Below, piece after piece: positions 10,918 through 39,274 of a DNA stretch of 64,000 bases. The DNA is taken from positions 1-64,000 of the IMG/VR virus record IMGVR_UViG_3300034349_000079, one strand, 5' to 3'. Position 1 is the first letter of the stretch, and each line of letters starts with the position of its first letter. The notes under the pieces were generated by a model. It worked only from the letters and a program-made list of their open reading frames with translations. It did no database searches and was not told where the DNA came from. The position numbers were made by a program, and so were the translations under genes. This DNA comes from a virus (Duplodnaviria > Caudoviricetes).

Positions 10918-11115
10918 TTATCTGCCTTTACGTTCACCTAGAACACGTACTACTGCATAGAAGATTGAGCGGTGTAATACTGATTCTATTTCAGGCAAAA
11001 TATGATTTATAGACTCTTCTCTCACAATATCCAGTATAATACTATCTACTTTTCTTGAAAGTTCTTCTCCGCTCGGAGTCATACGATCAATTTCATTATA
11101 AAGTGGGTCTTTCAC
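10918..11115 (-). CDS. hypothetical protein
   Basis: 65-aa ORF in the gene run. Confidence 0.6.
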   Translation of the reverse strand: MKDPLYNEIDRMTPSGEELSRKVDSIILDIVREESINHILPEIESVLHRSIFYAVVRVLGERKGR

Positions 11116-11611
11116 GTTTCTTTATCTCCGCAGTAATTTGTTCTAATCGCACAGGCATATAGTCCCAACAATCTACCCCGATGTCTACTGCTCGTGGATC
11201 ATAGTACTTAGTACCATGTGAATGCCCATGGATATGAGCCCAACCATGGAACTTGTTCGGCCAATCATATATAGGATAATGTGACATAACCAAACCAATG
11301 TTAGAATCGGTTACGATATCTCTTGGATGAATCGAGAAGAACTCTTTTAATTTATTAACATTTCCCATATCGTGATTTCCAAGAATTAATATCTTCTTAC
11401 CTTTTAGCTCATGTAGCATAGAGTAGTCTCTAAAAAAGACATCCCCAAGGTGCCAGATAGTATCATCATCCTCAACAACAGAATTCCATCGTTCAACCAG
11501 TACTTTATTCATCTCCTGCACTGTCTGACATACTCTGTATCTATTGCTAAACTTGATGATGTTTTCGTGACCAAAATGGTGGTCGGATGTATACCAAACG
11601 TTGTTGGACAT
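11096..11611 (-). CDS. calcineurin-like metallophosphoesterase
   Basis: SDHHFGH, HLGD, LGNHD, SHYP, HIHGHSH. Confidence 0.9.
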   Translation of the reverse strand: MSNNVWYTSDHHFGHENIIKFSNRYRVCQTVQEMNKVLVERWNSVVEDDDTIWHLGDVFFRDYSMLHELKGKKILILGNHDMGNVNKLKEFFSIHPRDIVTDSNIGLVMSHYPIYDWPNKFHGWAHIHGHSHGTKYYDPRAVDIGVDCWDYMPVRLEQITAEIKKRERPTL

Positions 11612-11628
11612 TTTAAATACTCTCCTGC

Positions 11629-12327
11629 TCAAGTTCTAGGTTTTAAGACTGGGTTATATGGGCGTAGAAGCTTGCGCTCTATTTCGTGAGCCATTGTTGG
11701 TGTTCGATCCAGTCTGTAGAAATACTTTGTATCATCAGGTTCTTCAGACCATCCAAATTGTTCGTACCAGTCTGACTCTGGTTGCCCAAAGAATTCCCAG
11801 ATAGCTTGATAATTTTCTCTTGTCCAGGAAGTACGAGATGGAAGTAAGTTTCTCGTACAAGCGTGATCTGGGTACTCAGCATTTTTCCATTTTTTGTGTG
11901 TTGCTATTTTACAACCCTTATACAATAGTAGAGCACGGAGGCCAGAATGAAATTCTTCATCCCCCCAAAAAGGAGGATCAATTTCTGGATACTCTGCCTC
12001 CTCCAGTTTTGAGACTATGTCACGCCACTTAAAAAGCGCTTCCTTACGCTTCTTCAGCATCTCAGTTTTGCCACTTACCTTGATAGGACGTATGATTCGT
12101 TCTTCAGATGTGGTGGCTATAAAACGAGCTAATTGTAGTTCGGCGTTAGTCCAGAATTTTGCCATTGTGTGGTATGAATATCCACTTTCTCCATTAGCCC
12201 TTTTGGGATAACATTCACAAAGACTTTTCAAGATAAGTAGACCAGCTACTTCTACTTGATATAAGTGCTTGATACTCAGTGCCTTAGCACTTCTCTCAAA
12301 ATCTGGGAAAGGCATAAAGACGATCAT
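11629..12327 (-). CDS. pyrimidine-dimer DNA glycosylase (DenV / MSMEG_6728-like)
   Basis: FMPFPDFERSAKAL...HTMAKFW...PPFWGDEEFH pattern. Confidence 0.7.
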   Translation of the reverse strand: MIVFMPFPDFERSAKALSIKHLYQVEVAGLLILKSLCECYPKRANGESGYSYHTMAKFWTNAELQLARFIATTSEERIIRPIKVSGKTEMLKKRKEALFKWRDIVSKLEEAEYPEIDPPFWGDEEFHSGLRALLLYKGCKIATHKKWKNAEYPDHACTRNLLPSRTSWTRENYQAIWEFFGQPESDWYEQFGWSEEPDDTKYFYRLDRTPTMAHEIERKLLRPYNPVLKPRT

Positions 12328-14137: not shown

Positions 14138-16150
14138 TTACTTGGTGTAGTTGTAGGCGTGTCCCCCCTCTGCATCAAGAGGAATGCCAGGGGCCCAGGT
14201 CGGTGATTTACGCATTGCGGTAATGCCAAATGCCAAAGCTTCATCAGCTTCTTCTTTCTTAGCGAGGAATACAACTTCGTCATGAACAAGAAGAACTATA
14301 CGATGTTTCTTAGCTATTTCAAGAGCTTGTTCTGCCACGATTATCCTCGCTAGGCATTGGCATATATTCTCATCGAGCTTTGAGTGCCAAATACGCGTGT
14401 AGATTGCTCCAGTCTCCCGAGAGAATCCGGTTTGGTATACCAGCTCAGAAAATTCCTTATCCTTAAAAGTATGGAAGTGAAGATTCTTATAATGCAGATA
14501 TAGTTCATTCGGCATGAAGATCTTGTCATCACAGATGCCTAGTAGATTCTGTACTTTGAAGCCAGTTTGTTTCGCGGCCATCATAACTAGAGCATGCTTT
14601 AGAATGTCCCAGCCCTCGATGATCTTGTTTCTTTTAGCCCTATAGAAGTCAACAGCTGCTATAGCTCCCTCTGGAGTCATCGGAACAACTTCCCCGATAA
14701 TGGATCCAGACAGACAACCATCGAGATATTTCTTCCAGCCCATCCCAAATCCTAGGCCAAGCTCCATGGCTTTACCTACTGGGCGTAAGTGTGCATTAAT
14801 ACCATCTTGGTGCTTTGAATGCTTACGTACAGTAACTCCATATAGTGCGGAGGCAAGGGCTGCGTATGGATCATCACCATTAGCAAACAAATTAAGAAGG
14901 TCAGTCTGTCCCCACAACCAGGCATTGACTCTAGCCTCAATTTGCGAGGAATCGGCGACCACAAGTACATATCCAGGAGGAGCAGTAATAGCTTCGCGGA
15001 GCCTAGAACCACGCCCATCTCTACCTGAGGGAAGATTTTGGAGGTTGATTTTATCCCAACCACTCCACCTCATAGTATGTGCCCCACAATACTTAAGTGG
15101 AACACAAAGAGGTTTTGTACCAGCATCTGTTGCAATAAGAAAGCTTTCTGCCCTAGTTTTGCGAATCGTTGACTTAAGTCCTGTCCAAGCTGCAACTAGG
15201 TCTGATACGCGCGAATCTTCGCCAAGATTCATAAGCTCTATATCATTTTTGGCAAAAGCATAGGTATAGACTGGAGAACCATCATCGTTATATTTCAGCT
15301 CTCCCTTTGTCGTTTTTGCATGCTTCATTGGTGGTACTACACCACGCGATTTAATAAGTTCTGCAAAACATGGGCGGGAACGCATTAATCCCGTAGTACC
15401 TTTGTCCACAACTATTTGCCGACATTTAGACGACAGTTGGGCGTCTTTTATTAAACTCGATTCTAGTAATGACTTTAGTCTGATATCTTCTTCTTCAATC
15501 TCAGCTCGGCATAAACCGGCATTGACTTCAAGTATAGGAACAGTAAAAGCACGAATAGTTATGTCGATGATATGAAGTTCAACTTCTGGAAAACCTCTAT
15601 CATAGTATAAGATTTCAAAAGCTGAGCGCGTCTGCTCAGAGTCTCTTATGGCATAAGGAATTAGCGCAGTCTCTTGTTCACTACTAAGTATGCGTATTCC
15701 AGAGGTTTCTTCTAGAACACCTTCAAGTTTACCAGGTAGATTCAAGCGTTTACAGAGATTCTTTAGGCTACCACTTTCATGAACGCCCCACTCTCCATAA
15801 GACATGCTCATAGTATCAAGATAATAGTCTGCTTCAATTCCATAATGCTCGTAGGCTAAAAAGCCATCGAAGGCGCAATTATGTGAGAGCCATGCAAAAC
15901 GTTGTTTTTTTAGCTCATTGAAAAACGCTTGAAGTTTATAGTGCGTAATCCATCCAGACTTACCCTCTGGATCTACATAACTAAACCCGTGGCAATAAAA
16001 TCTTGGATCTCGTATATACATGCAAGTTGTTAATCCCTTATTTCTTAAGGAATAACCTGAGGGATTGTTTTCATAATACGTTTCAGCGTCCAAAGTGAAA
16101 ACGGGTAAAGATTCTCCCAGTGAATTTTTTACGGTTAAAATTTTACCCAA
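14138..16150 (-). CDS. polA: family A DNA polymerase with 3'-5' exonuclease
   Basis: LDAETYY exonuclease, NLQNLP, ADSSQIEARV (A), RPVGKAMELGLGFG (B), LLVHDEV (C). Confidence 0.95.
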   Translation of the reverse strand: MGKILTVKNSLGESLPVFTLDAETYYENNPSGYSLRNKGLTTCMYIRDPRFYCHGFSYVDPEGKSGWITHYKLQAFFNELKKQRFAWLSHNCAFDGFLAYEHYGIEADYYLDTMSMSYGEWGVHESGSLKNLCKRLNLPGKLEGVLEETSGIRILSSEQETALIPYAIRDSEQTRSAFEILYYDRGFPEVELHIIDITIRAFTVPILEVNAGLCRAEIEEEDIRLKSLLESSLIKDAQLSSKCRQIVVDKGTTGLMRSRPCFAELIKSRGVVPPMKHAKTTKGELKYNDDGSPVYTYAFAKNDIELMNLGEDSRVSDLVAAWTGLKSTIRKTRAESFLIATDAGTKPLCVPLKYCGAHTMRWSGWDKINLQNLPSGRDGRGSRLREAITAPPGYVLVVADSSQIEARVNAWLWGQTDLLNLFANGDDPYAALASALYGVTVRKHSKHQDGINAHLRPVGKAMELGLGFGMGWKKYLDGCLSGSIIGEVVPMTPEGAIAAVDFYRAKRNKIIEGWDILKHALVMMAAKQTGFKVQNLLGICDDKIFMPNELYLHYKNLHFHTFKDKEFSELVYQTGFSRETGAIYTRIWHSKLDENICQCLARIIVAEQALEIAKKHRIVLLVHDEVVFLAKKEEADEALAFGITAMRKSPTWAPGIPLDAEGGHAYNYTK

Positions 16151-17411: not shown

Positions 17412-17714
17412 TTATACATATTTAAAAAACACTATTTCAGGTAGAAAATAAAGTAGGCTGCTGGAAGAATCACCGATGTGAAGTTTCCACACCTCATATC
17501 GTAGTAGATTTTTCCGTGCAGCACTTCGTTTAGCACCAGCTAATGTGCCATGAATCTTGTGCCCGTCACCAAGTCCTATGTAGTCGCAGAACCAACTAGT
17601 GATTAATCCCGTCGGTACACTGTACTTATAGGTTGGATAATCAAAGATCTTTATTCTGTACCCAATGTCTTGGTGTTTAAGAGTAGGTGCTGTTATTGCA
17701 ATTGTGTTAACCAT
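17412..17714 (-). CDS. hypothetical protein
   Basis: 100-aa ORF; see 16765..17037. Confidence 0.6.
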   Translation of the reverse strand: MVNTIAITAPTLKHQDIGYRIKIFDYPTYKYSVPTGLITSWFCDYIGLGDGHKIHGTLAGAKRSAARKNLLRYEVWKLHIGDSSSSLLYFLPEIVFFKYV

Positions 17715-18738
17715 CGTTTTTCAGTAAGTACTCGTTGTTAATAACCTTAAATGACGTCGCACCATCTGCCGATTTGAATACCAACCCTTCAATTGAAGGC
17801 ATAGAAGGAAATTTTGTCCGGTTAATTAACTCCGGCAAAGCTAGAATTGATTCCATATCTGTAATACCTAATTCAGGCAGTGTAAAATTCAACCCAAGAG
17901 TAGGAACATGGTTCAAAAAATGTGCTTCGCAAAATGCCGTACGTTCAATATGCGGTAAATAACACTGGTTGTCAATATCCCAAATGTCAAAGATGTAAAT
18001 TTGTACATTGAGATAACCTGCTCTATTTCTTTGAACCCCTGGTCCTGCAAGTTCTCCTTGTACTGCAAGATTTCGACCACAGGCTTCTAGTGCCTTAATG
18101 ATCCCTGAATTCTGTGCCGCATGTATGAACGCATTCCCTGAATTTTCGGGATCCATTTTTAGATCTATGTTGTGAGAACAGACTCCAACTACTCCATCTT
18201 TTAAATAGCCTGTTATTGAACTTCCATCAACTTTCAGAGAGATTTCATACTTAGTCTCTTGGTCAAGTAGTACCTCAGGAATATTTTGTATACGCGTTTG
18301 ACTTGTGCGATGTACAAAATATGGAAAATTGCCTTTACCTAAACCCCTCATATTTTCGGGTAGTGCGCGCTCCCACTTAAGCACGCCGAGTAGCTCAGTG
18401 AGGTCCATGCCCTCGACAAATTTGGCATGCGGCCAATCAGGAAGTTTTAGCAGCAGTCCCTGTGATAATTGTCCACGTAAGCGAACTGTACGTAGTCTTT
18501 CACCTTGAACTTCTTCAAAAACCTTTGGAGAATGCCCAGGTTTTGTAAGAAATGGAGCGAGTTCTGTTGGTACCCAACTATCCACCTCAAAATATAGCAC
18601 TAATTCATCGGTCTTAAAATCATCTTTTTTTACAACACACATCCAGCCATCTACTCTGGCGACCTGGATACTATCCGCGCCTTCAATTGGATTAATTTCT
18701 GCGATACGTCGTATTGTTGCTAGTCTTCTCTCAGACAT
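17707..18738 (-). CDS. RNA ligase, Rnl2 / DRB0094 family
   Basis: N-terminal OB domain (LRTVRLRGQLSQGL), KVDGSS, QGELAGPGVQ, EGLVFK, SFKVINNEYLLK. Confidence 0.9.
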   Translation of the reverse strand: MSERRLATIRRIAEINPIEGADSIQVARVDGWMCVVKKDDFKTDELVLYFEVDSWVPTELAPFLTKPGHSPKVFEEVQGERLRTVRLRGQLSQGLLLKLPDWPHAKFVEGMDLTELLGVLKWERALPENMRGLGKGNFPYFVHRTSQTRIQNIPEVLLDQETKYEISLKVDGSSITGYLKDGVVGVCSHNIDLKMDPENSGNAFIHAAQNSGIIKALEACGRNLAVQGELAGPGVQRNRAGYLNVQIYIFDIWDIDNQCYLPHIERTAFCEAHFLNHVPTLGLNFTLPELGITDMESILALPELINRTKFPSMPSIEGLVFKSADGATSFKVINNEYLLKNDG

Positions 18739-25403: not shown

Positions 25404-25433
25404 AAAAAGAGGCCCGTAGGAGATCCTACGGGC
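25404..25433 (-). terminator. rho-independent terminator
   Basis: GCCCGTAGG-ATCT-CCTACGGGC followed by CTCTTTTT on minus strand. Confidence 0.75.
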
Positions 25434-25442
25434 TAAGGGTGA

Positions 25443-25895
25443 CTACACTACGTAGTCTTCGTAGGTGAGGCCTAGTTTAGTAGCGATCTGCTTCAGAACT
25501 ACTGTCTCAGTGGCGTCTACCTCACCGTCACTGGCGGCGATGTCATATGCAATTAGGAAAACATCTTCACAATCAGCGACAGAATCATCTCCTTCGGCGT
25601 TACGCAAATCGCCGATCTCACGCAGCAACGCGGCTTTACCGGCCATCGGACTCGCTTCGATCTTAGTGGCATAGGCAATCACGATCTTGGAAACGTCGGA
25701 TGCACTAAAGGCACCCTTGATCTTGTTGTGGTTGGCCAGGGTGATTTGGCCATTCTTCAACTCATCTTTGCTGATGCCACCGGAAGCCGCAGCCACTAGG
25801 ATAAAGGCAGCAGCGATGGCTTCGAACACGTCCTTGTTAACTTTCTTGGCCTGGCCAGATTTGAGTTGAGTAGTGAAACGGTCTAGAAGACCCAT
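25443..25895 (-). CDS. terB: TerB-family tellurite-resistance protein
   Basis: LVAAASGGISKDE...IAASDGEVDATETVVLKQIATKLGL; start MGLLDRF. Confidence 0.85.
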   Translation of the reverse strand: MGLLDRFTTQLKSGQAKKVNKDVFEAIAAAFILVAAASGGISKDELKNGQITLANHNKIKGAFSASDVSKIVIAYATKIEASPMAGKAALLREIGDLRNAEGDDSVADCEDVFLIAYDIAASDGEVDATETVVLKQIATKLGLTYEDYVV

Positions 25896-26034
25896 AGTTT
25901 TATGCTCGTGGTTGGTTAAAAGGGGTTGTGCCAGTCTTTCCTGGCTGCCAAGCATGGACTTGTTTAGCCTCGCTACTATGCTGGGCCCAACGAGGAGGTT
26001 ACTTCTCGTAATTAAATGAGACGTAGAACTGGCC

Positions 26035-26365
26035 TTATTTTTCTTCGCGCTTGTTCATACGAAGGATCCTACTACATTACACGGCTTTTTTCTTCGTGTA
26101 ACTAGAAAATCAGACTTCTTTTACTTCGCGCCGATAACTAACGAAGGATCTTAAATTCCCGTCTATTCGGGACAAGCTGAGCATTATTTTACTTCGCGCT
26201 TTGCGTCTACGAAGGTTTTCCGAGGTCAACGGAGGTCATCATGAAACAGCCGCGTCCCAACTTTATTTTACTTCGCGAGGACGCACACGAAGGTTTTTGC
26301 TCGTCTCTCCGAACTTGTCGCGGCACATCATTTATTTACTTCACCGCACCGTTTATGGTGAAGGT
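26035..26365 (-). repeat. tandem array of structured RNA repeats (CCTTCGT-N9-11-CGCGAAG-TAAAATAA)
   Basis: five full and one degenerate unit, 68-81-nt period, compensatory stem change in one unit. Confidence 0.85.
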
Positions 26366-26374
26366 TCTCCAGGA

Positions 26375-27004
26375 TTAGTTTAAGGTACGTGGCGTAGTGT
26401 ATGCTTTTTCTAGGCTCCAACCTAGCTTTAGCCGTGTAGTGATGAGAGTTGAACATCCTCCTAGATCTTTTGCCCAATCTGCTTTGCATTGAGTCTTACC
26501 ATTGAAGGTATAAAATACAGAGTTGGACTTATTTCTAGCTTGCGTAGCATTTGAGGCTCACACACAATTATCCTTTGAATACCCTTTAGAACCATCTAAA
26601 CGTTCTAAGGAATAGCCAGGCGGTCTTTGGCCCATATCGTCACGAAATTTTGTAAAGTCGTCCCATTCCTTGCAAATCGCTATTCCTTTCCCTCCGTAAT
26701 CTAAGTAACTGACATTCTTGGGATTAGAACAACGCTGGCGCATGTTTAACCAAGTACTGTATAACTGTCCTTTAGCCCCTCGTCTTGCTTCTCCATGTGT
26801 ACAATTTTGTTTCGCTAGTTCAGTTTTTAGACAACCACAACTTTTTGTATTTCCAGTTACAAGCTGTGTTCCAGTTGTCTCAAACTCTTTTCCACAAACA
26901 CAAACACACTTCCAGCGTGACCTGCCGTTCTTCGAATTTGGCCCTCGGTTTAAAACGGTTAATCGATCAAAAGCTCTACCGGTAAGTTCTAAGGGCCTAG
27001 TCAT
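26375..27004 (-). pseudogene. HNH endonuclease interrupted by in-frame TGA at 26558-26560
   Basis: KDNCV*ASNATQARN aligns with KDNCCWATKIVQQRN of 13419..14075; frame continues 60 codons to TAA. Confidence 0.8.
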
Positions 27005-27065
27005 ATTTATCTCCCAAAAAGAGCATTTTAACATGCCTAGGCCCTTAGTGCACGGTTCCTCGCAG

Positions 27066-28673
27066 TTAAATTTTCTCCGCGATGAAATCGGACACAATCT
27101 GAGGAAGGCTCGCATCAGCCCCAACGCAGTCCAGCATTCCGGAGTCTTTTGGATCAGCGATTGTGAAATTAGTCGCAGTCAAGCCCATGACTACTAACTT
27201 CACGTCGTGGCCTACTTGCTGGCGGTATTCGCGCAAAGCTTGTACTGGCTGAATACGGCCGGCGTAAGTCTCTGAATCCGTCGCGATAATTACAGTCTCA
27301 AAGTTCCGTTGCTTCTGTTTAGCCCAAACCACGGGGAGACTGCAATCAGTTCCGCCGAACGGTAATCGATTAGTTTGGCGAATTATATCGTCTAAGCGTT
27401 GTTTAGGGCTGATGTTGAGCGGAATAAAAGACGTCGAAAAGGCCATGAACTCGTAGTCTTCTTCCAGACGCGCGACTGCCATAGCAAAGGCAACAGAGGC
27501 AGTTCTTGCAGTCATATGCGTTCCTGCGACCATGCTACCGTCCATCGAGCCGCTGACATCCATGGCAAACAGGATTTTCTTTCCTGTCGGAGCAACGTTT
27601 TTGAAAGATAGGTAGAAAGCCGCATCCAGAGCATCTACTATCTTTTGAACCGGAGTCCAAGTTAAAGAACCTTTTACACCGCGCCCTGCCTGATAGGTTG
27701 TAAGAGCCAGAAGGATTGAGAAAGGATGTACACGCGCTTTTTGTAAAGCTTCTGCATCCTGTAGTTTGGAGATCACCAACTTTGTTGCTTCGCTATTTGG
27801 TTGAAGTAAGCCAATATTCGTCATCTTCGATAAGTTTCTAAGCGCCGCATGGAGTGGCATCTTTTGGAGCAAGGCTTCCCAGACGGAGACGCTATTGAGC
27901 CAGGTATTCGGAACCATCTCTCTTGTGAGCCCAAAATCATTTATCAGCGCGATATTTGGCTTATCTGGGCTAGCCATTGCCTTGATATGAGCTTGGACAG
28001 TTTGTGGAAGCATTGACTCATCCGCAACTACTTTTCCAACCGCCCACTTGAATAGATCATTCATTTCAGCATCTTTTGGGACTGGATGCGCCATACGTAG
28101 TGCGTCTTTTGTGGACCAGTCGTTACGAGTGCGATACTTGGTGAATTGATAGCCGAGTTGATCTGGGGTCTTGGATGTATACCACGAGGCAACAGTTTCG
28201 CGTAAAACACGTCCCCAGCCTCTAAGTGGATTCACATAGCTGATGAACTCAAACAAATGGCTCTGAGTCCGTACTACAGAAGAAAATACTTTCATGGCTT
28301 CATGACGTACAGGCAGAGTTCCATGCGAGAAGGCCAAGGCCAAAGCAAACAAGGTTGGACTTACTTTAGGACCCCTGCCTTCCACCGAGATTTGCTTGAG
28401 TAGCTGAATAGCTTCAACACCGATGTCTGAAGGAGCGGAGAAAATATCTACGGCTACTTTAGCGTTGTCCTTAGTCAGTTTCTGTTCTGTTGCGTAGTAT
28501 GTACCTCCGGAACTTCCAAGAATAAGAAAACGTTCGAACTGTTTAAGTGGAGAAATTGTAAAGGTCATGCCATGGGCATTGTTAAGCGACATTTCCCGTT
28601 CTCTACCAGGAATGACCTGCGTTTGTGGAGTTGTAGAATATGAGCGAGCGAAGTTTGCGTACGGACCGGACAT
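27066..28673 (-). CDS. rsr: Ro60/Rsr TROVE-domain RNA-binding protein
   Basis: RFLILGSSGGTYY, GWGRVLR, KYRTRNDWSTKDALRMAHP, MPLHAALRNL, vWA DVSGSM, GGTDCSLP, TDSET. Confidence 0.95.
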   Translation of the reverse strand: MSGPYANFARSYSTTPQTQVIPGREREMSLNNAHGMTFTISPLKQFERFLILGSSGGTYYATEQKLTKDNAKVAVDIFSAPSDIGVEAIQLLKQISVEGRGPKVSPTLFALALAFSHGTLPVRHEAMKVFSSVVRTQSHLFEFISYVNPLRGWGRVLRETVASWYTSKTPDQLGYQFTKYRTRNDWSTKDALRMAHPVPKDAEMNDLFKWAVGKVVADESMLPQTVQAHIKAMASPDKPNIALINDFGLTREMVPNTWLNSVSVWEALLQKMPLHAALRNLSKMTNIGLLQPNSEATKLVISKLQDAEALQKARVHPFSILLALTTYQAGRGVKGSLTWTPVQKIVDALDAAFYLSFKNVAPTGKKILFAMDVSGSMDGSMVAGTHMTARTASVAFAMAVARLEEDYEFMAFSTSFIPLNISPKQRLDDIIRQTNRLPFGGTDCSLPVVWAKQKQRNFETVIIATDSETYAGRIQPVQALREYRQQVGHDVKLVVMGLTATNFTIADPKDSGMLDCVGADASLPQIVSDFIAEKI

Positions 28674-28712: not shown

Positions 28713-28773
28713 AGGGCTAATTAATTATCAAACGGTTTATCATTACAGGTGGTAACGTTTGAAAATCGGCCCT
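28713..28773 (-). ncRNA. Y RNA-like element Y1
   Basis: AGGGCCGA-stem-TTACC...TTAGCCCT. Confidence 0.75.
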
Positions 28774-28783
28774 AAAAAAGAGA

Positions 28784-28858
28784 AGGCTAAAAGCGTCAAA
28801 GAGGATTTTCATAGTCTGACGACTAAGTCATGGAAGATAATTCTCTGACTACGGCCCT
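28784..28858 (-). ncRNA. Y RNA-like element Y2
   Basis: AGGGCCGT-N10-TTATC...TTAGCCTT. Confidence 0.75.
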
Positions 28859-28865
28859 AAAACGG

Positions 28866-28939
28866 GGTGAGTGACGGGCTTCGGACCCGTATTTCTAGGA
28901 ATCACAGTCCTAGGCTTTACCAATTAAGCTACACTCAAC
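28866..28939 (-). tRNA. trnH: tRNA-His(GTG)
   Basis: TAGGA-CTGTGAT-TCCTA, G-1/C73; atypical TCCGAAG T-loop. Confidence 0.85.
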
Positions 28940-28948
28940 ATTTGGAGC

Positions 28949-29063
28949 GGGCAAAGCGCTGTGTTTGAGAGTTCAAGGTCTACAAGTATCTCGGTTGTAG
29001 CCTAGTCTTTAATTCGAATGGTTAGTTCGGATGTTGTCAAGATAATCAAACACTATCGGCCCC
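28949..29063 (-). ncRNA. Y RNA-like element Y3 (long form, two internal hairpins)
   Basis: GGGGCCGA-TAGTGTTTGA-TTATC...TCAAACAC..TTTGCCC. Confidence 0.7.
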
Positions 29064-29145
29064 AGAAACATTTGCATAGTTTATTCGGCAAGCTCCTACT
29101 ATGCTAGGAGTTTCACGGCCAGTCCTAGTTAGAACTGTCCTTGCC

Positions 29146-29457
29146 TTATTTTGGTAAAACGCTCGCAGCAAGCTGGTTGATGCTGCGTAAGAAAAGCAAA
29201 CGCGTTCTTGGATAAGTCCACTTTAGCCAATGTCTCTCGTTTGTTGGATCTCCTATCTCTTCAGACAGAATCATCCGCCATATTTGTGCTGGAGTGTACT
29301 TATGAATGTAGTTTTGATCCCGCGCTGCTTGGGCACTTACTACATGTCCGTGCATAATAGCTCTACGAATAGCCTTACGAACGGGGTCACTTTTATTATA
29401 TCGAGAATGATACAAATGATCTTTTGACATTGGCCTCTGATGAGAGCACCTACTCAT
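29146..29457 (-). CDS. hypothetical protein
   Basis: GAGGT RBS before MSRCSHQ. Confidence 0.6.
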   Translation of the reverse strand: MSRCSHQRPMSKDHLYHSRYNKSDPVRKAIRRAIMHGHVVSAQAARDQNYIHKYTPAQIWRMILSEEIGDPTNERHWLKWTYPRTRLLFLRSINQLAASVLPK

Positions 29458-29837
29458 AGTAGACCTCTGATTATTTCCTACATTTTCAACTAGCTTGCGG
29501 AGTATATTCGCTAGAAGCAACAAGCCGCCCCCGTGGTCCTAAAATTGAGTACACGAGCCTCCCGCCTGGCATTTTAGTAGGTTAAAACCCCCTGAAAAAA
29601 TTCGTCACCTGTGGGGTTATTTATCCTAGCATATTCTCCCACCGGTCTTCTTACAAGCCGAGGTGTGGCAAACGGATAAAGGGCGTTTTGTAAGACAAGC
29701 CCTTTAACAACTCTCTCACCTAAATGATCAATTTCTTGAGCGATGATGACAAAACGGTACTACCATAGAGATTTTTATTTTAATCCCCGGCCCTAAAGAC
29801 CGTTGGCTTTTCTTATTAGACGATGGTAGCATTAGTT

Positions 29838-29912
29838 TGGCGACCCTGCGGGGTTTCGAACCCCGGTAATGTGATAGACAATCACATGTCCTAGCCTTTA
29901 GACGACAGAGCC
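29838..29912 (-). tRNA. trnD: tRNA-Asp(GTC)
   Basis: TGTGA-TTGTCTA-TCACA, G73, CCA. Confidence 0.9.
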
Positions 29913-29921
29913 ATATTTTGT

Positions 29922-29981
29922 AGGGCTAAAGATAGTTTTGCTGTTTGATCGCCTAATGATAAAGCAAAACTGGACGGCCCT
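29922..29981 (-). ncRNA. Y RNA-like element Y4
   Basis: AGGGCCGT-AGTTTTGCT-TTATC...AGCAAAACT-ATCTTTAGCCCT. Confidence 0.75.
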
Positions 29982-29986
29982 GAAAT

Positions 29987-30116
29987 TGGTGGAGTAGCCT
30001 CGATTTGCACGAGGATCGTTCATTTTACAGATGAGAATACATCACTATCGTACCGGGTTTGGACGGTCAAGATGTTGCAATGCACTTTTAACGCTCTACT
30101 ATTAAGCTACTACTCC
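29987..30116 (-). ncRNA. tRNA-Tyr(GTA)-like RNA with a 56-nt Y-module insertion in the anticodon stem
   Basis: complete acceptor, D and T arms and CCA; removing the insert gives GTTCAT-CTGTAAA-ATGAAC. Confidence 0.75.
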
Positions 30117-30122
30117 AGAAAT

Positions 30123-30187
30123 TGGCGCGAAAATAAGGGATAATCTACCGGCCGTGTTTGGCTAAAGATGTAGGTCCCGTTTTCGCA
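30123..30187 (-). ncRNA. circularly permuted Y-like RNA with CCA end (P1)
   Basis: TGCGAAAA/TTTTCGCG-CCA outer stem; inner ATCTTTAGCC-loop-GGCCG...TTATC. Confidence 0.65.
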
Positions 30188-30192
30188 TTGTT

Positions 30193-30259
30193 TGGTGCGA
30201 AATAAATAAACTCCACCGGCCAGTGGTTATAGGTGGGATCCTAGTCTAAATATTCCGCA
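30193..30259 (-). ncRNA. circularly permuted Y-like RNA with CCA end (P2)
   Basis: TGCGGAATA/TATTTCGCA-CCA; inner TAACC-ACT-GGCCG. Confidence 0.55.
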
Positions 30260-30264
30260 TTGTT

Positions 30265-30340
30265 TGGTAGCGAGGGCGCGATTCGGACGCGCGATCTTAG
30301 GTTTATGAGACCCATGAGATAACCACTTCTCCACCTCGCT
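30265..30340 (-). tRNA. trnM: tRNA-Met(CAT), initiator-like body
   Basis: TGGGT-CTCATAA-ACCTA, CCA. Confidence 0.85.
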
Positions 30341-30473
30341 AAATTTTAAGTGTCTCTAGATCAATATTTCTATTTCTATCTTACGCCCGCGAGCGGTAGA
30401 TGGCTACTTATAGAACAAGACCTTGTTAATTCCCTAGAGACCGATCAAGGCTATTCCGTTTTACTCATATATT

Positions 30474-30525
30474 CGGTGGACATCAACGGGGTTGAACCGT
30501 TCACTACCGTCGTAGCTTAATGTCC
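30474..30525 (-). ncRNA. 52-nt tRNA minihelix-like RNA
   Basis: GGACATT/GATGTCC-A-CCG, AACGG-TTCAACC-CCGTT T-arm, one 4-bp hairpin between them. Confidence 0.55.
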
Positions 30526-30534
30526 GTAATTAGT

Positions 30535-30656
30535 TGGGACTGAGAGGTTTCGAACCTCTGACATGCTGTTGTGATAATACACCAAATCCGGACTATTTGT
30601 CAAGTTTGGATGGCGCATGTTTTTGACGGCTGCTCTACCAGCTGAGCTACAGTCCC
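30535..30656 (-). ncRNA. tRNA-like RNA with a 47-nt Y-module insertion in the anticodon stem
   Basis: GGGACTG/CAGTCCC, GCTC/GAGC D-arm, AGAGG/CCTCT T-arm; insert contains CTTGAC/GTCCGG helix. Confidence 0.7.
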
Positions 30657-30667
30657 ATTTAAAAAGG

Positions 30668-30817
30668 TGAGGGGAGCAGGTTTCGAAGCTGCAATTTCAC
30701 TATTAAGTGAACCGGTTCCTATTATTATGTAAGTCTATCGACCCATTTGTAATGGGTAAATATATCGATATACAATTTTATATATACCGGTGCGTCTACC
30801 AATTTCGCCATCCCCTC
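30668..30817 (-). ncRNA. tRNA-Leu-like RNA with a ~62-nt Y-module insertion in the anticodon loop
   Basis: Leu-type D-arm and variable arm, CCGGT/ACCGG stem; insert contains TTTACCC/GGGTCGA bulged helix. Confidence 0.7.
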
Positions 30818-30822
30818 ATAAC

Positions 30823-30898
30823 TGGCTCCGAAAAGAGGTTTCGAACCTCTGACAAACTGCTTAACAGGCAGCTACTCTACCAACTGAGTTATATCGGA
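30823..30898 (-). tRNA. trnN: tRNA-Asn(GTT)
   Basis: GCTGC-CTGTTAA-GCAGT, G73, CCA. Confidence 0.9.
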
Positions 30899-30916
30899 TT
30901 AGTGCAGAGGATTATA

Positions 30917-30945
30917 ATAATAATCTAAATCCTCGTGAAAGTCAA
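30917..30945 (-). promoter_or_regulatory. sigma70-type promoter driving the tRNA/Y-RNA cluster
   Basis: TTGACT-17 nt-TATTAT upstream of tRNA-Asn. Confidence 0.6.
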
Positions 30946-31043
30946 ATGCTTTCTCCTGTATGTTGTCGATCAAAGCGAAAAGTTCTTCGTCTGAAATGTC
31001 ATCGTTAAATAGTTCGTTGTCTATCATTTTTATACACGTTGTG

Positions 31044-31118
31044 TGGTCGGCGCCGAGGGAATCGAACCCCCTTAGTCATGGTCCCAAACCATGCGATCAG
31101 CCAATGAACCAGGCACCG
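31044..31118 (-). tRNA. trnP: tRNA-Pro(TGG)
   Basis: CATGG-TTTGGGA-CCATG, CCA. Confidence 0.9.
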
Positions 31119-31125
31119 AGATGGA

Positions 31126-31185
31126 AGGGCTAGTTAGTTATGCTGGGGTTGTATCTTAGAAGGATAACCCATCAAGAACGGCCCT
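31126..31185 (-). ncRNA. Y RNA-like element Y5
   Basis: AGGGCCGT-N10-TTATC...CTAGCCCT. Confidence 0.7.
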
Positions 31186-31385
31186 AAAATCAAAACGCGC
31201 TTACATGGAGACGTCTAGAATTCTCCTAGTGGGTTACACCACGTTTTTCTGTAAAGTAAGCGCCTCATCATCCTAGAATAGTGTGGTTAATGTTGCTTTT
31301 ACACCACAAGGTTTTATTGTAGCAACCCTTCAGCTAGTCATTAATATTACCGTTCGTCAGACTAGCAGTTGAGAACGAGTATTCT

Positions 31386-31461
31386 TGGAGCGGACACGGA
31401 AAGAATCAAACTCCGGTCATTAGCTTGGAAGGCTAAGGTAATATCACTATACGATATCCGC
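31386..31461 (-). tRNA. trnG: tRNA-Gly(TCC)
   Basis: TTAGC-CTTCCAA-GCTAA, U73, CCA; bulged T-stem. Confidence 0.85.
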
Positions 31462-31471
31462 AAAAAACGGT

Positions 31472-31531
31472 TGGGATAATTGATTTATCATGCGAGTGTC
31501 AGTAATTTAGGTAACGCACGACTTCGTCCCA
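31472..31531 (-). ncRNA. Y RNA-like element Y6
   Basis: TGGGACGA-N9-TTACC...TTATCCCA (compensatory C-G to A-U change). Confidence 0.7.
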
Positions 31532-31537
31532 GAAACT

Positions 31538-31627
31538 TGGTGTATGGTAGTTGATTCGAACAACTGTGGGCCATCAAGACCAACGGATTTACAGTCCGTC
31601 CCCGTCAACCAGCTTGGGTAACCATAC
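31538..31627 (-). tRNA. trnY: tRNA-Tyr(GTA)
   Basis: ACGGA-CTGTAAA-TCCGT, long variable arm, CCA. Confidence 0.9.
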
Positions 31628-34418: not shown

Positions 34419-36308
34419 TTATACCAGAGTCAAACATACACGACAAGAGTTTGGAGAGGCCCTTATTACCTCAACATTTACTTTTTCGTGTCCGTCTGTA
34501 AAACGGTGGAACTCTGCCGCTGTTGCAGGAATGGGCTTCAAGTCCGCTACCTTGTATGCGCCATTCACCCATCCAGTATCGCAGATCATGGTGATCAATC
34601 TCGCAGTTTGTTTGCCAAACCGTTGGAAAAGCTCCGGGGGGGCAAACCTCGCGCTAAGACGAGGCGGGCCGAACGCGATCAAAGCGATGTTGGCATCTTC
34701 GGTGGAGAATTTCTCTCCACCAATCGAACCCGTCAAACTGGCAATCTCAAACTGCCCACGTATCGTTCTAAGCTGTTCGATCAGATCGGCCTTATAGCCT
34801 TCACGTAGCGCTTCATCTTCGATCTCTTCTGCACCAGCGGCTTCTCCGAGGTCGGATGCCAAAGTGCGGTAATTCAGGGCTAGGCTCTTCATTGCCGAAG
34901 CGGCAAGCGGATTACAGGCCGCTCTTGCACCTTCTAGGATCGAGTTTGGTAGGCGAGCATTAGCCTGGTTACGAAAGAACTCCACGTCTGTGAAGAGTTG
35001 GTTTAGTACCAGGGCGCGATTGGCCAGGGCGTGCTCGAATAGCGTACCCTCATCCCAGGTACCGATTTCTACAGCATTTATCAAGGCGATCCATGCCAGG
35101 CGCTTGTTCTCTAGTCCTCCGACGTTTTTGAGCTTGTTGATAAAGTCCGTGATAAATGGCTTTTCAGCCCCATGTTGTCGAACCAATTCCATCAACATGA
35201 GGAACTGAGACTCGACTGTTGCGTTATCGACCGGATGTTTCTTAGCCTGTACCGACGCTTGAGCGACGCCTGCCAATATGCCGCGCAGATGTTCGTCGGC
35301 CAGACCGCGTTCGATCAGCCGCATAGCAGCGAGGATAGTAGGACCTAGCCTACCTGTCACTGTCGATGCAGCAGCTTCGATCATTTGTTTACCGACGTCG
35401 TCAGAGGCGTATTGCTTTGCTTCAGGAGCCAAATAGTCCGGTCTGGATACGGCTCCCTTGGGAAGCAAGACCGCGCTTGGGGCGTAAATTACCCCATTAT
35501 CCCCATCGAAATCTCCACCTCCGGCTTTCCAGTGTTTGGAAGCTGGGTTAAGGATGATGCCATAGATAGCACGAACGGTATCATCGAGCCATTCCAGCAC
35601 ACCAGTGTACATTGCCGGATACATGGATGTCCCGTCTGGCAAAGCTGGATCACGGTGAATCAGGAACCACCGGCCCATCAGTTCATGCGGCTTGACACCG
35701 AGTTGCTTCGCCAATTTGAGGGCTGAGCCCTTCAGTAGCATGAAGCACGGAAACTCTTGATGTTCAAACCTCTCATCATAGGCACCAAAGCGCTCGGATG
35801 GAGTACTTGGCACCAGGGTTGAGCCGTAAATGATGGCTCTTATTCCAGGCGTTTCCAAGCGGTTAAAAGCATCCCATGGCGCGAGTTGATCAAGCAGAAG
35901 GGCTGGCGGGACACCAAATTCGATCTTTAGCTTGCTGTCACGGCCGAGAAGGTCGAGCGCGGTTTTTGTAGTATACCGCAAGGAGTCTTGGTCGAGAAGA
36001 GCAGCGGGATCCTTTGCGCTGAACGAAACGGTCTGCAAGGCCAAGCGGCAACGTTGCTCTCCGATTTCACCTAATTTGTGAAATTTTCCGCTCCCCCCTA
36101 GCGGCTTGCCGAAGCCAGCCTCGTCGCACTTCATCTCCTCTTCATACTCTCCCGTACGGGGATTGTATAGCAACGGACGAACAATTCCCTTGGCTATGGT
36201 AATTGCCCCATCTACGGCTGTTGAGATGAACGTTCCCTGGGCTGGCTCGGAAACACGTGGCCCTAGATATAATGTTCCATCATTTTCGGAACTTTTGAAG
36301 CTTTTCAT
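34419..36308 (-). CDS. single-chain two-barrel RNA polymerase (YonO / RdRP-like)
   Basis: RLETPGIRAII, HRDPALP, GGGDFDGD catalytic motif. Confidence 0.75.
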   Translation of the reverse strand: MKSFKSSENDGTLYLGPRVSEPAQGTFISTAVDGAITIAKGIVRPLLYNPRTGEYEEEMKCDEAGFGKPLGGSGKFHKLGEIGEQRCRLALQTVSFSAKDPAALLDQDSLRYTTKTALDLLGRDSKLKIEFGVPPALLLDQLAPWDAFNRLETPGIRAIIYGSTLVPSTPSERFGAYDERFEHQEFPCFMLLKGSALKLAKQLGVKPHELMGRWFLIHRDPALPDGTSMYPAMYTGVLEWLDDTVRAIYGIILNPASKHWKAGGGDFDGDNGVIYAPSAVLLPKGAVSRPDYLAPEAKQYASDDVGKQMIEAAASTVTGRLGPTILAAMRLIERGLADEHLRGILAGVAQASVQAKKHPVDNATVESQFLMLMELVRQHGAEKPFITDFINKLKNVGGLENKRLAWIALINAVEIGTWDEGTLFEHALANRALVLNQLFTDVEFFRNQANARLPNSILEGARAACNPLAASAMKSLALNYRTLASDLGEAAGAEEIEDEALREGYKADLIEQLRTIRGQFEIASLTGSIGGEKFSTEDANIALIAFGPPRLSARFAPPELFQRFGKQTARLITMICDTGWVNGAYKVADLKPIPATAAEFHRFTDGHEKVNVEVIRASPNSCRVCLTLV

Positions 36309-39149: not shown

Positions 39150-39200
39150 CTTTGATTCTCGCTGCTATTGGCCCGTCAGTAGAACCTAAAATTGTGGGTG

Positions 39201-39274
39201 TGGGGGGCCCGGGAGTCGAACCCGGACCTTAGCAGCTTAAGTGGCTGCGATACTTGCCGTTGTACGAACCCCCC
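39201..39274 (-). tRNA. trnK: tRNA-Lys(CTT)-like, with A33
   Basis: GCAGC-CACTTAA-GCTGC, GGGGGGT/GCCCCCC acceptor. Confidence 0.7.

What the first reader, a model, noticed from the sequence alone, without database searches (positions are those of the whole stretch)
26035..26365. Array of six diversified H-type pseudoknot RNA repeats
On the minus strand each unit reads CCTTCGT-[variable 9-11 nt]-CGCGAAG-TAAAATAA-[variable]. Stem 1 covaries (CTTCACC/GGTGAAG in one unit). The variable loop pairs with the variable downstream sequence in each unit: GCGTCC/GGACGC, CGGTGC/GTGCCG, ATCGG/CTGAT, TTACAC/GTGTAA (degenerate unit), GAAC/GTTC and a bulged CAAAGC/GCTTG. So structure is conserved while stem-2 sequence changes. 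Tandem pseudoknots with an A-rich loop 3 are the established architecture of type III toxin-antitoxin antitoxins (ToxI/CptI/TenpI), but no cognate toxin is nearby. Inference: a library of antitoxin mimics against abortive infection, or a new RNA decoy class. It is not a CRISPR array, because the variable part lies inside the repeat.
Basis: partly seen in the sequence, partly recalled or inferred. Interest (0 to 1): 0.85.

Follow-up and report, generated by a model that had tools for sequence, protein, structure and literature searches.

The report
Five tandem phage pseudoknot RNA modules
Five diverged copies of a small, uncatalogued pseudoknot-type RNA module sit in a row in the RNA-gene region of an uncultured phage, and single copies occur among the tRNA genes of other large phages; the element is real and new, but nothing shows it to be an antitoxin mimic.

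Summary
The array is real, but it has five units, not six, and it is not shown to be an antitoxin mimic.

- **Units:** On the minus strand (26364-26026), five units with a period of 68-82 nt share a 6-7-bp hairpin (core CUUCG...CGAAG). One unit has three compensatory pair changes. Each hairpin is followed by an A-rich octamer (UAAAAUAA-like). The 'sixth unit' is only the tail hairpin of unit 4.
- **Stem 2 in the window:** Loop-to-downstream pairing is individually significant only in unit 2. Collectively it is modest (3/120 permutations, 9/2000 shuffles).
- **Support from other phages:** The same hairpin plus A-tract occurs as single copies in other uncultured phage contigs, mostly between co-oriented tRNA genes. 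There both stems covary: in 11 sequences found through an unrelated 3' domain, stem 1 is 100% paired with 2/5 pairs doubly changed, and stem 2 is 82% paired with 2/7.
- **Known families:** No Rfam family matches, including type III antitoxins, preQ1 and YrlA.
- **Context:** The array lies in a Ro60-HNH-array-TerB gene string inside the phage's tRNA region. Ro60 is absent from 16 of 17 other module-bearing records. No tandem copies were found in prokaryote genomes.

Best reading: a new phage structured-RNA module, amplified five-fold here. Its function is only inferred, as either a nuclease roadblock or processing mark, or a multivalent protein decoy.

The parts
26321..26364 (-). Unit 1: stem 1 26364-26357 / 26345-26339 (variant CTTCACC/GGTGAAG), A-rich loop 3 26338-26331, proposed stem 2 26351-26346 / 26326-26321 (6 pairs, 2 of them G-U)
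   Evidence: Found by model R1 at 19.4 bits with compensatory pairs and by R2 at 27.5 bits. Coordinates. Stem 2 is not individually significant.
26299..26314 (-). Tail hairpin of unit 1 (5 pairs, 6-nt purine loop)
   Evidence: -6.5 kcal/mol, z -3.2, 0/200 shuffles as good.
26252..26293 (-). Unit 2: stem 1 26293-26287 / 26277-26271, loop 3 26270-26263, stem 2 26284-26279 / 26257-26252 (6 Watson-Crick pairs, 8 with end wobbles)
   Evidence: Stem 2 duplex -13.1 kcal/mol, 7/3000 shuffles as good.
26173..26215 (-). Unit 3: stem 1 26215-26209 / 26198-26192, loop 3 26191-26184, weak bulged stem 2 ending at 26173
   Evidence: Stem 2 is not significant (751/3000). An alternative extended hairpin is possible.
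26157..26172 (-). Tail hairpin of unit 3 (5 pairs, 6-nt loop)
   Evidence: -7.4 kcal/mol, z -2.5.
26109..26147 (-). Unit 4: stem 1 26147-26141 / 26130-26124, loop 3 26123-26116 (UAAAAGAA), weak stem 2 26135-26131 / 26113-26109
   Evidence: Stem 2 is not significant (1042/3000).
26077..26101 (-). Tail hairpin of unit 4 (7 pairs).
   Evidence: z -3.1. No match to R1 or R2.
26026..26065 (-). Unit 5: stem 1 26065-26059 / 26049-26043, loop 3 26042-26035 (AAAAAUAA), 4-pair stem 2 26056-26053 / 26029-26026
   Evidence: Stem 2 407/3000. The same AAAAAUAA variant occurs in relatives L136b, L137b and L247.
27066..28673 (-). Ro60/Rsr orthologue (535 aa), context gene upstream on the same strand
   Evidence: TROVE 3e-44 and vWA_Ro60 2e-58; phrog_850; 42% identical to 'Ro-like RNA binding protein' of actinophages.
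26381..27124 (-). HNH homing-endonuclease gene with an in-frame TGA at 26558-26560. Its stop lies 16 nt before unit 1.
   Evidence: phrog_374 2.6e-62 when TGA is read through; sequence.
25443..25955 (-). TerB-like gene directly downstream of the array (the likely start may be the ATG at 25895)
   Evidence: Pfam TerB 2.3e-07, phrog_632 5e-23.
25412..25433 (-). Strong intrinsic-terminator-like hairpin after TerB, the likely 3' end of the transcript that carries the array
   Evidence: 9 pairs, 7 of them G-C, followed by a T-run.

Best explanation
The array is five tandem, diverged paralogues of a phage-specific structured-RNA module that is in no catalogue.

Layout of one unit (about 70-80 nt):
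- a 5-7-bp hairpin (stem 1);
- an A-rich strand (UAAAAUAA-like) placed to run along the minor groove of stem 1;
- a second stem between the hairpin loop and the sequence after the A-tract, giving an H-type pseudoknot laid out like tmRNA PK1 or preQ1-I;
- usually a small tail hairpin.

The array is read on the minus strand. The transcript would be Ro60-HNH-array-TerB, inside the phage's tRNA region.

Shown: the units, stem-1 covariation, and the module's occurrence and covariation of both stems in other phages, mostly inside tRNA arrays.

Inferred:
- The module works through its shape rather than a sequence-specific site, because both stems drift freely and only the A-rich strand is held.
- It is a compact knot that resists ribonucleases. 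It marks or protects RNA pieces released when the tRNA-region transcript is processed.
- Five are in series here ahead of terB. Their different stem-2 sequences keep neighbouring copies from mispairing.

My odds: about 0.8 for identity as a real pseudoknot-type RNA module family, and about 0.3 for the roadblock or punctuation mechanism.
For: In the window:
- The units are far beyond chance. The fifth is recovered by a covariance model with compensatory stem-1 pairs.
- Cognate stem-2 pairing beats non-cognate pairing.
- Spacing matches 'pseudoknot plus tail hairpin'. This is the same layout as the first ~75 nt of the G1/G2 relatives, the two groups described below.

In other phages:
- A scan of 2.9 million viral contigs for the hairpin plus A-tract gave 34 loci. 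The loop length peaks at 13 nt (10 loci) and 10 nt (7 loci) instead of being flat.
- In 26 non-redundant hits, chosen without regard to stem 2, cognate loop/downstream duplexes sum to -170 kcal/mol, against -133 (sd 10.6) for permuted partners. Only 11 of 20000 permutations did as well.
- Paired changes are seen between orthologues: GGUGG/CCACC versus GGCGG/CCGCC, and GUUGG/CCAAC versus CUUGG/CCAAG.
- Eleven members of one group (G1) were retrieved through an unrelated conserved 3' domain. Stem 1 is 100% paired with 2/5 pairs doubly changed (CUUCG, CCUUG and CCUCG forms). Stem 2 is 82% paired with 2/7 doubly changed. The A-tract is nearly invariant. All slid controls collapse to 35-43% paired.

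Context:
- Modules lie between co-oriented tRNA genes, for example 10 nt after tRNA-Glu and 41 nt before tRNA-Ile.
- The window's array is co-oriented with 13 tRNA genes around it.
- No promoter-like or terminator-like site lies inside the array, and a strong terminator follows terB.
Against: - Inside the window, stem 2 is individually significant for only one unit. Unit 3 can fold instead as a longer plain hairpin.
- The relatives were found with a pattern taken from the window, so their identical stem-1 and A-tract letters are partly by construction. About half of those hits are probably chance.
- One conserved group (G3) has the hairpin and A-tract without an evident nearby stem 2.
- In G1 the module is preceded by a conserved hairpin, so it is not always at a 5' end. 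That weakens a simple '5' cap' role.
- There is no expression data.
- Nothing tests nuclease resistance.
- No other five-fold array was found anywhere.
Confidence: 0.4

Rival explanations
1. Multivalent protein decoy or sponge. Each unit presents the same hairpin plus A-rich strand to an RNA-binding or RNA-cleaving protein, of the host or the phage. Five copies raise the dose, as CsrB-type sponges and repeated antitoxin RNAs do. An anti-defence role would be one form of this.
For: - Amplification to five copies in one transcript suggests a stoichiometric function.
- Within the window the constant part (stem 1 plus A-tract) is held while the rest drifts.
- Phage tRNA regions are known from the literature to counter host RNA-targeting defences (my own knowledge, not tested here).
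- Modules flanked by tRNAs would be released as free small RNAs.
Against: - In the unbiased G1 set stem 1 changes sequence freely, which is not expected for a sequence-specific protein site.
- No protein co-occurs with the module. Ro60 is in 1/17 records, an RNA ligase in 3/5, and the window's 629-aa ORF in 0/5.
- Other phages have only 1-2 copies.
Confidence: 0.25
2. Type III antitoxin mimic. The units imitate ToxI/CptI/TenpI-type pseudoknots and neutralise a host endoribonuclease toxin during abortive infection.
For: - Tandem pseudoknot-type units carry an A-rich single strand containing AAAU. By my recollection, ToxN-type enzymes cut this kind of site.
- There is a published precedent of a phage escaping ToxIN by expanding a pseudo-ToxI repeat (listed: PMC5449768, PMC3401426).
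Against: - The units are not near-identical head-to-tail repeats of 34-45 nt.
- No Rfam antitoxin family matches at E up to 10.
- The motif never occurs twice in a stretch in 185,579 prokaryote species genomes, so no host locus with this repeat is seen.
- Relatives are single copies, some built into a ~215-nt RNA.
- No ToxN gene is found in the record, though that search's control was silent.
Confidence: 0.07
3. Ro60-bound Y-RNA-like modules. The hairpins carry the CGAA-type word that Ro60/Rsr recognises, and they serve the Ro60 encoded 0.7 kb upstream.
For: - The array is on the same strand and within 4 kb of a Ro60 gene, which is the criterion used to find bacterial Y RNAs.
- Four units carry CGCGAAG, close to the published GNCGAA(N)G word.
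- A phage Ro60 binds hairpins that carry CGAA, and each of those four letters matters (PMC12135203).
- The record has no YrlA match.
Against: - TROVE is absent from 16 of 17 other module-bearing records, including 6 of the 7 that are at least 90% complete.
- CGAA is not conserved. Unit 1 has UGAA, and G1 members have CAAGG or CGAGG.
- The word lies in the 3' strand of a short closed hairpin, not in a long 5'/3' stem.
- The closest Ro60 relatives (about 51% identical) have no such module.
- Six GGGCCGA/T words between tRNAs just upstream of Ro60 are better Y-RNA candidates (not analysed).
Confidence: 0.07
4. Cis-regulatory leader (tandem riboswitch or attenuator) controlling terB or read-through into it.
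For: - The last unit ends about 70-130 nt before the TerB start.
- The preQ1-I-like layout is present.
- One relative (L055) sits 25 nt before an ORF, with stem 2 followed by a T-run.
Against: - No conserved unpaired pocket nucleotides are shared among units.
- Downstream genes of relatives are unrelated to each other: PD-(D/E)XK, Hsp20, unknowns.
- Many copies lie between tRNA genes.
- No preQ1 or other riboswitch model matches.
- Most copies have no T-run after stem 2.
Confidence: 0.05
5. A DNA-level signal: repeated palindromic operators, promoters (the A-tract resembles a -10 box) or replication iterons.
For: - The two conserved blocks are an inverted repeat with a spacer of nearly fixed length.
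- TAAAAT resembles a -10 hexamer placed 16-17 bp after the first block (sequence).
Against: - Covariation of the loop with sequence beyond the A-tract in relatives has no DNA-level explanation.
- Unit 1 changes both half-sites within one genome.
- The consensus scan finds no sigma-70-like promoter on this strand.
- A-tract variants break the -10 rule, for example TAAAAC.
- There is no GC-skew turn here.
Confidence: 0.04

Closest known systems
tmRNA pseudoknot PK1
   Same: Same layout and sizes: a 5-bp hairpin, a 9-nt loop whose 5' part pairs downstream, a U-then-A-rich loop 3 directly after stem 1, and a 5-bp stem 2. This was read directly in E. coli ssrA.
   Different: - No tRNA-like domain, tag reading frame or further tmRNA parts; ARAGORN and Rfam find no tmRNA here.
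- Model R2 does not score PK1.
- Loop 3 is longer (10-15 nt).
- The module occurs in tandem or among tRNAs.
preQ1-I riboswitch aptamer (Rfam RF00522)
   Same: A small H-type pseudoknot with a 5-bp P1 and an A-rich tail lying along P1. This architecture is recalled from the literature.
   Different: - No Rfam match at E up to 10.
- Stem 2 is 5-8 bp and variable.
- No conserved pocket nucleotides.
- Not in leaders of queuosine genes.
Type III antitoxin RNAs (ToxI, CptI, TenpI)
   Same: Several pseudoknot-type units in a row, each with an A-rich single strand.
   Different: - The units are not identical 34-45-nt head-to-tail repeats.
- No toxin gene (weak test).
- No model match.
- No host locus with the motif.
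- Relatives are single copies inside tRNA arrays.
Bacterial and phage Y RNAs (YrlA; Yrl1/Yrl2 of Thermus phage phiLo)
   Same: Encoded next to Ro60 on the same strand, with hairpins carrying a CGAA-type word.
   Different: - No YrlA match and no tRNA-like domain.
- The word is not conserved in the family.
- The family does not co-occur with Ro60.
Exoribonuclease-resistant RNAs of plant and insect-borne viruses, and bacterial 5' stabiliser stem-loops
   Same: A stem-loop whose apical loop pairs with downstream sequence, sometimes in tandem copies. Function resides in the fold, so the stems covary. This is an analogy from my own knowledge.
   Different: No sequence or model relation. Nuclease resistance is untested here, and such elements are not known from phage tRNA arrays.

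Membership tests
Type III toxin-antitoxin antitoxin RNA | Near-identical direct repeats of about 34-45 nt, head to tail | tested here: not met
   Tandem Repeats Finder finds no array. The period is 68-82 nt with only about 22 conserved letters per unit.
Type III toxin-antitoxin antitoxin RNA | Adjacent ToxN/CptN/TenpN-type endoribonuclease gene (or, for a phage mimic, a host locus with the same repeat) | tested here: inconclusive
   No PF13958 match in the record, but the control genomes were silent too. The motif never occurs twice per stretch in one genome each of 185,579 prokaryote species. Only the exact motif was scanned.
Type III toxin-antitoxin antitoxin RNA | Match to ToxI or other antitoxin covariance models | tested here: not met
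   cmscan of 25900-26500 at E up to 10 returns only a spurious snoRNA match.
Type III toxin-antitoxin antitoxin RNA | Processing to unit length by the toxin and neutralisation of the toxin | not testable with these tools
   Needs co-expression assays.
preQ1-I riboswitch | Match to RF00522, with conserved ligand-contacting nucleotides in the loops | tested here: not met
   No match. The loops of the five units share no conserved letters.
preQ1-I riboswitch | Position in the leader of queuosine or preQ1 genes | tested here: not met
   The downstream gene is TerB-like. Relatives lie between tRNAs or before unrelated ORFs.
Y RNA (YrlA type) | Encoded within 4 kb of Ro60 on the same strand | tested here: met
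   The Ro60 stop is at 27066 and unit 1 starts at 26364, both on the minus strand.
Y RNA (YrlA type) | tRNA-like domain, or a match to RF02553 | tested here: not met
   No match in the region or in the whole record. Positive controls in actinophage loci scored 36-52 bits.
Y RNA (YrlA type) | Conserved GNCGAA(N)G word used for Ro60 binding | tested here: inconclusive
   Four units have CGCGAAG (5 of 6 fixed letters) and unit 1 has GGUGAAG. Family members have CAAGG or CGAGG instead.
Y RNA (YrlA type) | Co-occurrence with Ro60 across genomes | tested here: not met
   TROVE is in 1 of 17 other module-bearing records, and in 1 of the 7 that are at least 90% complete.
CRISPR array | Fully conserved repeats separated by unique spacers, with cas genes or a leader | tested here: not met
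   The repeat's own loop varies and pairs with the 'spacer'. No CRISPR repeat family matches.
tmRNA (PK1) | tRNA-like domain with CCA end, and a tag reading frame after PK1 | tested here: not met
   ARAGORN and Rfam report no tmRNA in the window. R2 does not score genuine PK1.
New phage pseudoknot module (this report) | 5-7-bp hairpin, then an (U/A)AAAAUAA-like strand, then pairing of the hairpin loop with sequence 2-7 nt (up to about 21 nt in one relative) beyond it; both stems covary | tested here: met
   Window units. Relatives.

The most novel reading that the evidence does not exclude
The array is a phage-encoded RNA sponge. Five independently folding knots display one constant face to titrate a host RNA-cutting defence or RNA-decay enzyme (a type III toxin would be one case). 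The single copies scattered in tRNA arrays of many large phages would then be the ancestral, low-dose form of a widespread RNA-based counter-defence.
Probability: 0.15. Interest if true: 0.85.

Novelty: new variant of a known kind. Interest (0 to 1): 0.6.

Why it matters
If the reading holds, this is a new family of small structured RNAs specific to large, tRNA-rich phages. It has comparative support for a pseudoknot fold and is absent from Rfam.

Phage tRNA regions already hold unexplained RNAs (ROOL, Y-like RNAs, T4 species 1 and 2). A compact module that recurs there, and is amplified five-fold next to Ro60 in one phage, gives a concrete object for asking how phages process, protect or weaponise their non-coding transcripts.

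The same searches also exposed a ~215-nt multi-pseudoknot RNA that carries the module at its 5' side.

The function is still open, so the value lies in a well-defined, testable new element rather than in a demonstrated mechanism.

Tried and rejected
- **Rfam:** the whole window at gathering scores, and the region at E up to 10, gave only tRNAs and spurious matches. Relatives' loci gave tRNAs, ROOL and weak YrlA, with nothing on the module.
- **Close relatives of the locus:**
  - No DNA match in 50,697 phage records.
  - The exact window-type unit is absent from viral contigs.
  - The metagenome scan gave 11 hits, almost all coding sequence.
  - The Ro60 protein found no viral-contig relative by pattern scan.
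  - The identical Ro60 cluster member could not be looked up.
- **Ro60 relatives at about 51% identity (L005-L008):** no module and no YrlA.
- **A 14-mer scan:** gave only single, mostly chance hits.
- **Genome scan of 185,579 species:** 54 single hits. Nearly half (23) have an 8-nt spacer, and most of those lie in what looks like a conserved coding motif. No tandem copies were found.
- **Partner proteins across module-bearing records:** TROVE 1/17, the window's RNA ligase 3/5, the window's 629-aa ORF 0/5.
- **T4 species 1 and 2 RNAs:** unrelated.
- **G1 3' domain:** absent from the window and from named phages.
- **Literature word searches:** found no description of the motif.
- **Earlier notes of this scan:** no look-alike stretch was found.
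- **Promoter reading:** considered because of the TAAAAT word, and rejected on covariation.
- **Pistol, HDV-like and RNase P-like readings:** considered by eye, and dropped for lack of any model match.

Full report
**What is in the window.**
- Read on the minus strand, 26364-26026 holds five units that start at 26364, 26293, 26215, 26147 and 26065.
- Four carry exactly CCTTCGT, 9-10 variable letters, then CGCGAAG. None of 100 dinucleotide-preserving shuffles of the window gave even one such match.
- Each is followed by an A-rich octamer: UAAAAUAA twice, and UAAAAGAA, AAAAAUAA and UAAAUAAA once each.
- A covariance model built from the four (R1) recovers the fifth unit unaided at 19.4 bits, E 0.024. 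In that unit the hairpin is kept by changes on both strands, CTTCACC with GGTGAAG.
- Nothing else in the window or in the 83.6-kb record matches.
It is a plain hairpin in the tail of unit 4.
- Units 1, 3 and 4 each have such a tail hairpin that folds better than shuffles.
- Tandem Repeats Finder reports nothing, because only about 22 of about 75 letters per unit are conserved.

**Stem 2 inside the window.**
- The proposed pairing of each loop with the sequence after the A-tract is strong in unit 2: eight pairs, -13.1 kcal/mol, 7 of 3000 shuffles as good.
- It is moderate or weak in the others: 381, 751, 1042 and 407 of 3000 shuffles for units 1, 3, 4 and 5.
- As a set, cognate pairings beat swapped partners in all but 3 of 120 permutations, and beat shuffled partners in all but 9 of 2000.
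- The window alone therefore supports a pseudoknot in one or two units and only hints at it in the rest.

**Relatives elsewhere.**
- A scan of the viral contig collection for the 5-bp hairpin core plus the commonest A-tract gave 34 loci. The loop length is not flat: ten loci have 13 letters and seven have 10.
- The hits were chosen without regard to stem 2. Even so, in 26 non-redundant hits the cognate loop/downstream duplexes sum to -170 kcal/mol, against -133 (sd 10.6) for permuted partners. Only 11 of 20000 permutations did as well.
- About a dozen hits carry a clear stem 2. The rest look like chance matches, as the collection's size predicts.
- Orthologous pairs show double changes: GGUGG/CCACC against GGCGG/CCGCC, and GUUGG/CCAAC against CUUGG/CCAAG.
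- To escape the bias of my own pattern, I retrieved further members of one group (G1) through a conserved word in its unrelated 3' domain.
- In the resulting 11-sequence alignment (A5):
  - Stem 1 is paired in every sequence and two of its five pairs change on both sides (CUUCG, CCUUG and CCUCG forms).
  - Stem 2 is 82% paired, with two of seven pairs changed on both sides.
  - The A-tract is nearly invariant.
  - Sliding the partners by 1-3 columns drops pairing to 35-43% (an earlier 5-sequence version is).
- The H-type layout is thus supported by comparison, and what is held constant is the A-rich strand rather than the stem letters.

**Where the module lives.**
- In at least seven independent contigs the module lies between co-oriented tRNA genes. 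In one it starts 10 nt after tRNA-Glu and ends 41 nt before tRNA-Ile.
- One phage has two diverged copies 1 kb apart in its array.
- In group G1 the module is the 5' part of a conserved ~215-nt RNA with further covarying helices.
- In group G2 it is followed by a hairpin and a PD-(D/E)XK endonuclease ORF.
- A few copies sit between ordinary ORFs.
- No Rfam family covers any of these, and named phage genomes hold no match to G1.
- Other phages have one or two copies. The five-fold tandem form was found only here.

**Context in the window.**
- The array is co-oriented with 13 tRNA genes.
- It lies in a gene string made of a Ro60/Rsr orthologue (TROVE plus Ro60-type vWA), an HNH endonuclease gene with an in-frame TGA, the array, a TerB-like gene and a strong terminator.
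- No promoter-like or terminator-like site falls within the array, so it is most simply part of that transcript.

**Ro60 as partner.**
- This was my first idea. Bacterial Y RNAs are defined by lying near Ro60 and by a GNCGAA(N)G word (PMC4201824). A phage Ro60 binds hairpins that carry CGAA (PMC12135203). Four units carry CGCGAAG.
- The evidence then turned against it:
  - TROVE is missing from 16 of 17 other records that carry the module, including six of the seven that are at least 90% complete.
  - The word is replaced by CAAGG or CGAGG in G1 members.
  - The nearest Ro60 relatives have no module.

**The antitoxin-mimic reading.**
- The units are not identical short head-to-tail repeats.
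- No antitoxin model matches.
- No prokaryote genome among 185,579 species shows the motif twice in a stretch. Most of those hits are coding sequence.
- Relatives are single copies or parts of a bigger RNA.
- The reading survives only as a special case of a decoy.

**How it most likely works.**
- Shown: a recurrent module in which both stems covary and an A-rich connecting strand is conserved. It occurs inside co-transcribed RNA-gene regions and is amplified five-fold here with divergent stem-2 letters.
- Inferred: this conservation pattern is what one expects when the fold itself is the function. The layout matches tmRNA PK1, which I checked in E. coli ssrA, and the preQ1-I aptamer, in which an A-rich strand lies along stem 1.
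- I therefore favour a compact, ribonuclease-resistant knot that marks or protects RNA pieces released from the tRNA-region transcript. The divergent stem-2 letters would prevent mispairing between neighbouring copies. I give this about 0.3.
- A multivalent protein decoy is nearly as likely, at about 0.25. It is favoured by the copy number and disfavoured by free drift of stem 1 and by the lack of any co-occurring protein.
- Against a strict 5'-cap role, G1 has a conserved hairpin ahead of the module.
- No expression or biochemical data could be obtained.

**Verdict.**
- The pseudoknot idea is upheld by comparison with other phages.
- The antitoxin-library interpretation is not supported.
- The element is best filed as a new family of phage pseudoknot modules of unknown function, with an unusual tandem expansion next to Ro60.

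Noticed in passing
window 26381-27124 (-), TGA at 26558-26560: The HNH homing-endonuclease gene has an in-frame TGA exactly where the HNH motif expects tryptophan. Read through, it matches phrog_374 at 2.6e-62. It may be a pseudogene or a case of recoding. The only tRNA-Trp in the window has anticodon CCA.
   Followed up: partly
alignment A5 (L139:2965-3178, L140:308-515, L148:11500-11712, L242, L246, L247, L250, L251, L255, L136:1904-2117, L137:10327-10542): A ~215-nt conserved RNA occurs in tRNA arrays of at least 11 uncultured phage contigs. It consists of a hairpin, the pseudoknot module, a covarying hairpin and a second large pseudoknot (one helix has 4 of 5 pairs doubly changed). It has no Rfam match, is absent from named phages, and is absent from this window.
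   Followed up: partly
L032, L072, L145, L157, L159, L046 (around the motif positions listed): A third group carries the hairpin plus A-tract, followed by covarying hairpins, one with the loop GACGAAACG. It lies upstream of small ORFs or an Hsp20 gene. No clear nearby stem 2 is seen.
   Followed up: no
window 28766-31530 (-): Six GGGCCGA/T-type words on the minus strand lie between tRNA genes directly upstream of Ro60. The word is not enriched over the whole window (20 matches against 17 expected), but it is clustered here.
   Followed up: partly
window 30535-30656, 31395-31461, 30265-30340, 31538-31627, 39200-39274: Rfam and ARAGORN disagree on five tRNA calls. One Rfam-only match is 122 nt long, which implies a large insert.
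   Followed up: no
L136:39-667 (-) and L136:3460-3564 (-): A ROOL RNA (351 bits) and a YrlA-like match (43 bits, below threshold) lie in the same phage tRNA array as two copies of the module. That 97%-complete record has no Ro60 gene.
   Followed up: no
window 34419-36308 (-): A 629-aa ORF has no PHROG match and no relative in five module-bearing phage records.
   Followed up: no
window 17707-18738, 11096-11632, 3294-5486, 14138-16150 (-): The phage encodes an RNA ligase (phrog_968), a phosphoesterase, RIIA and a DNA polymerase. This is a large lytic phage with an RNA-repair-like gene set near the tRNA region.
   Followed up: partly
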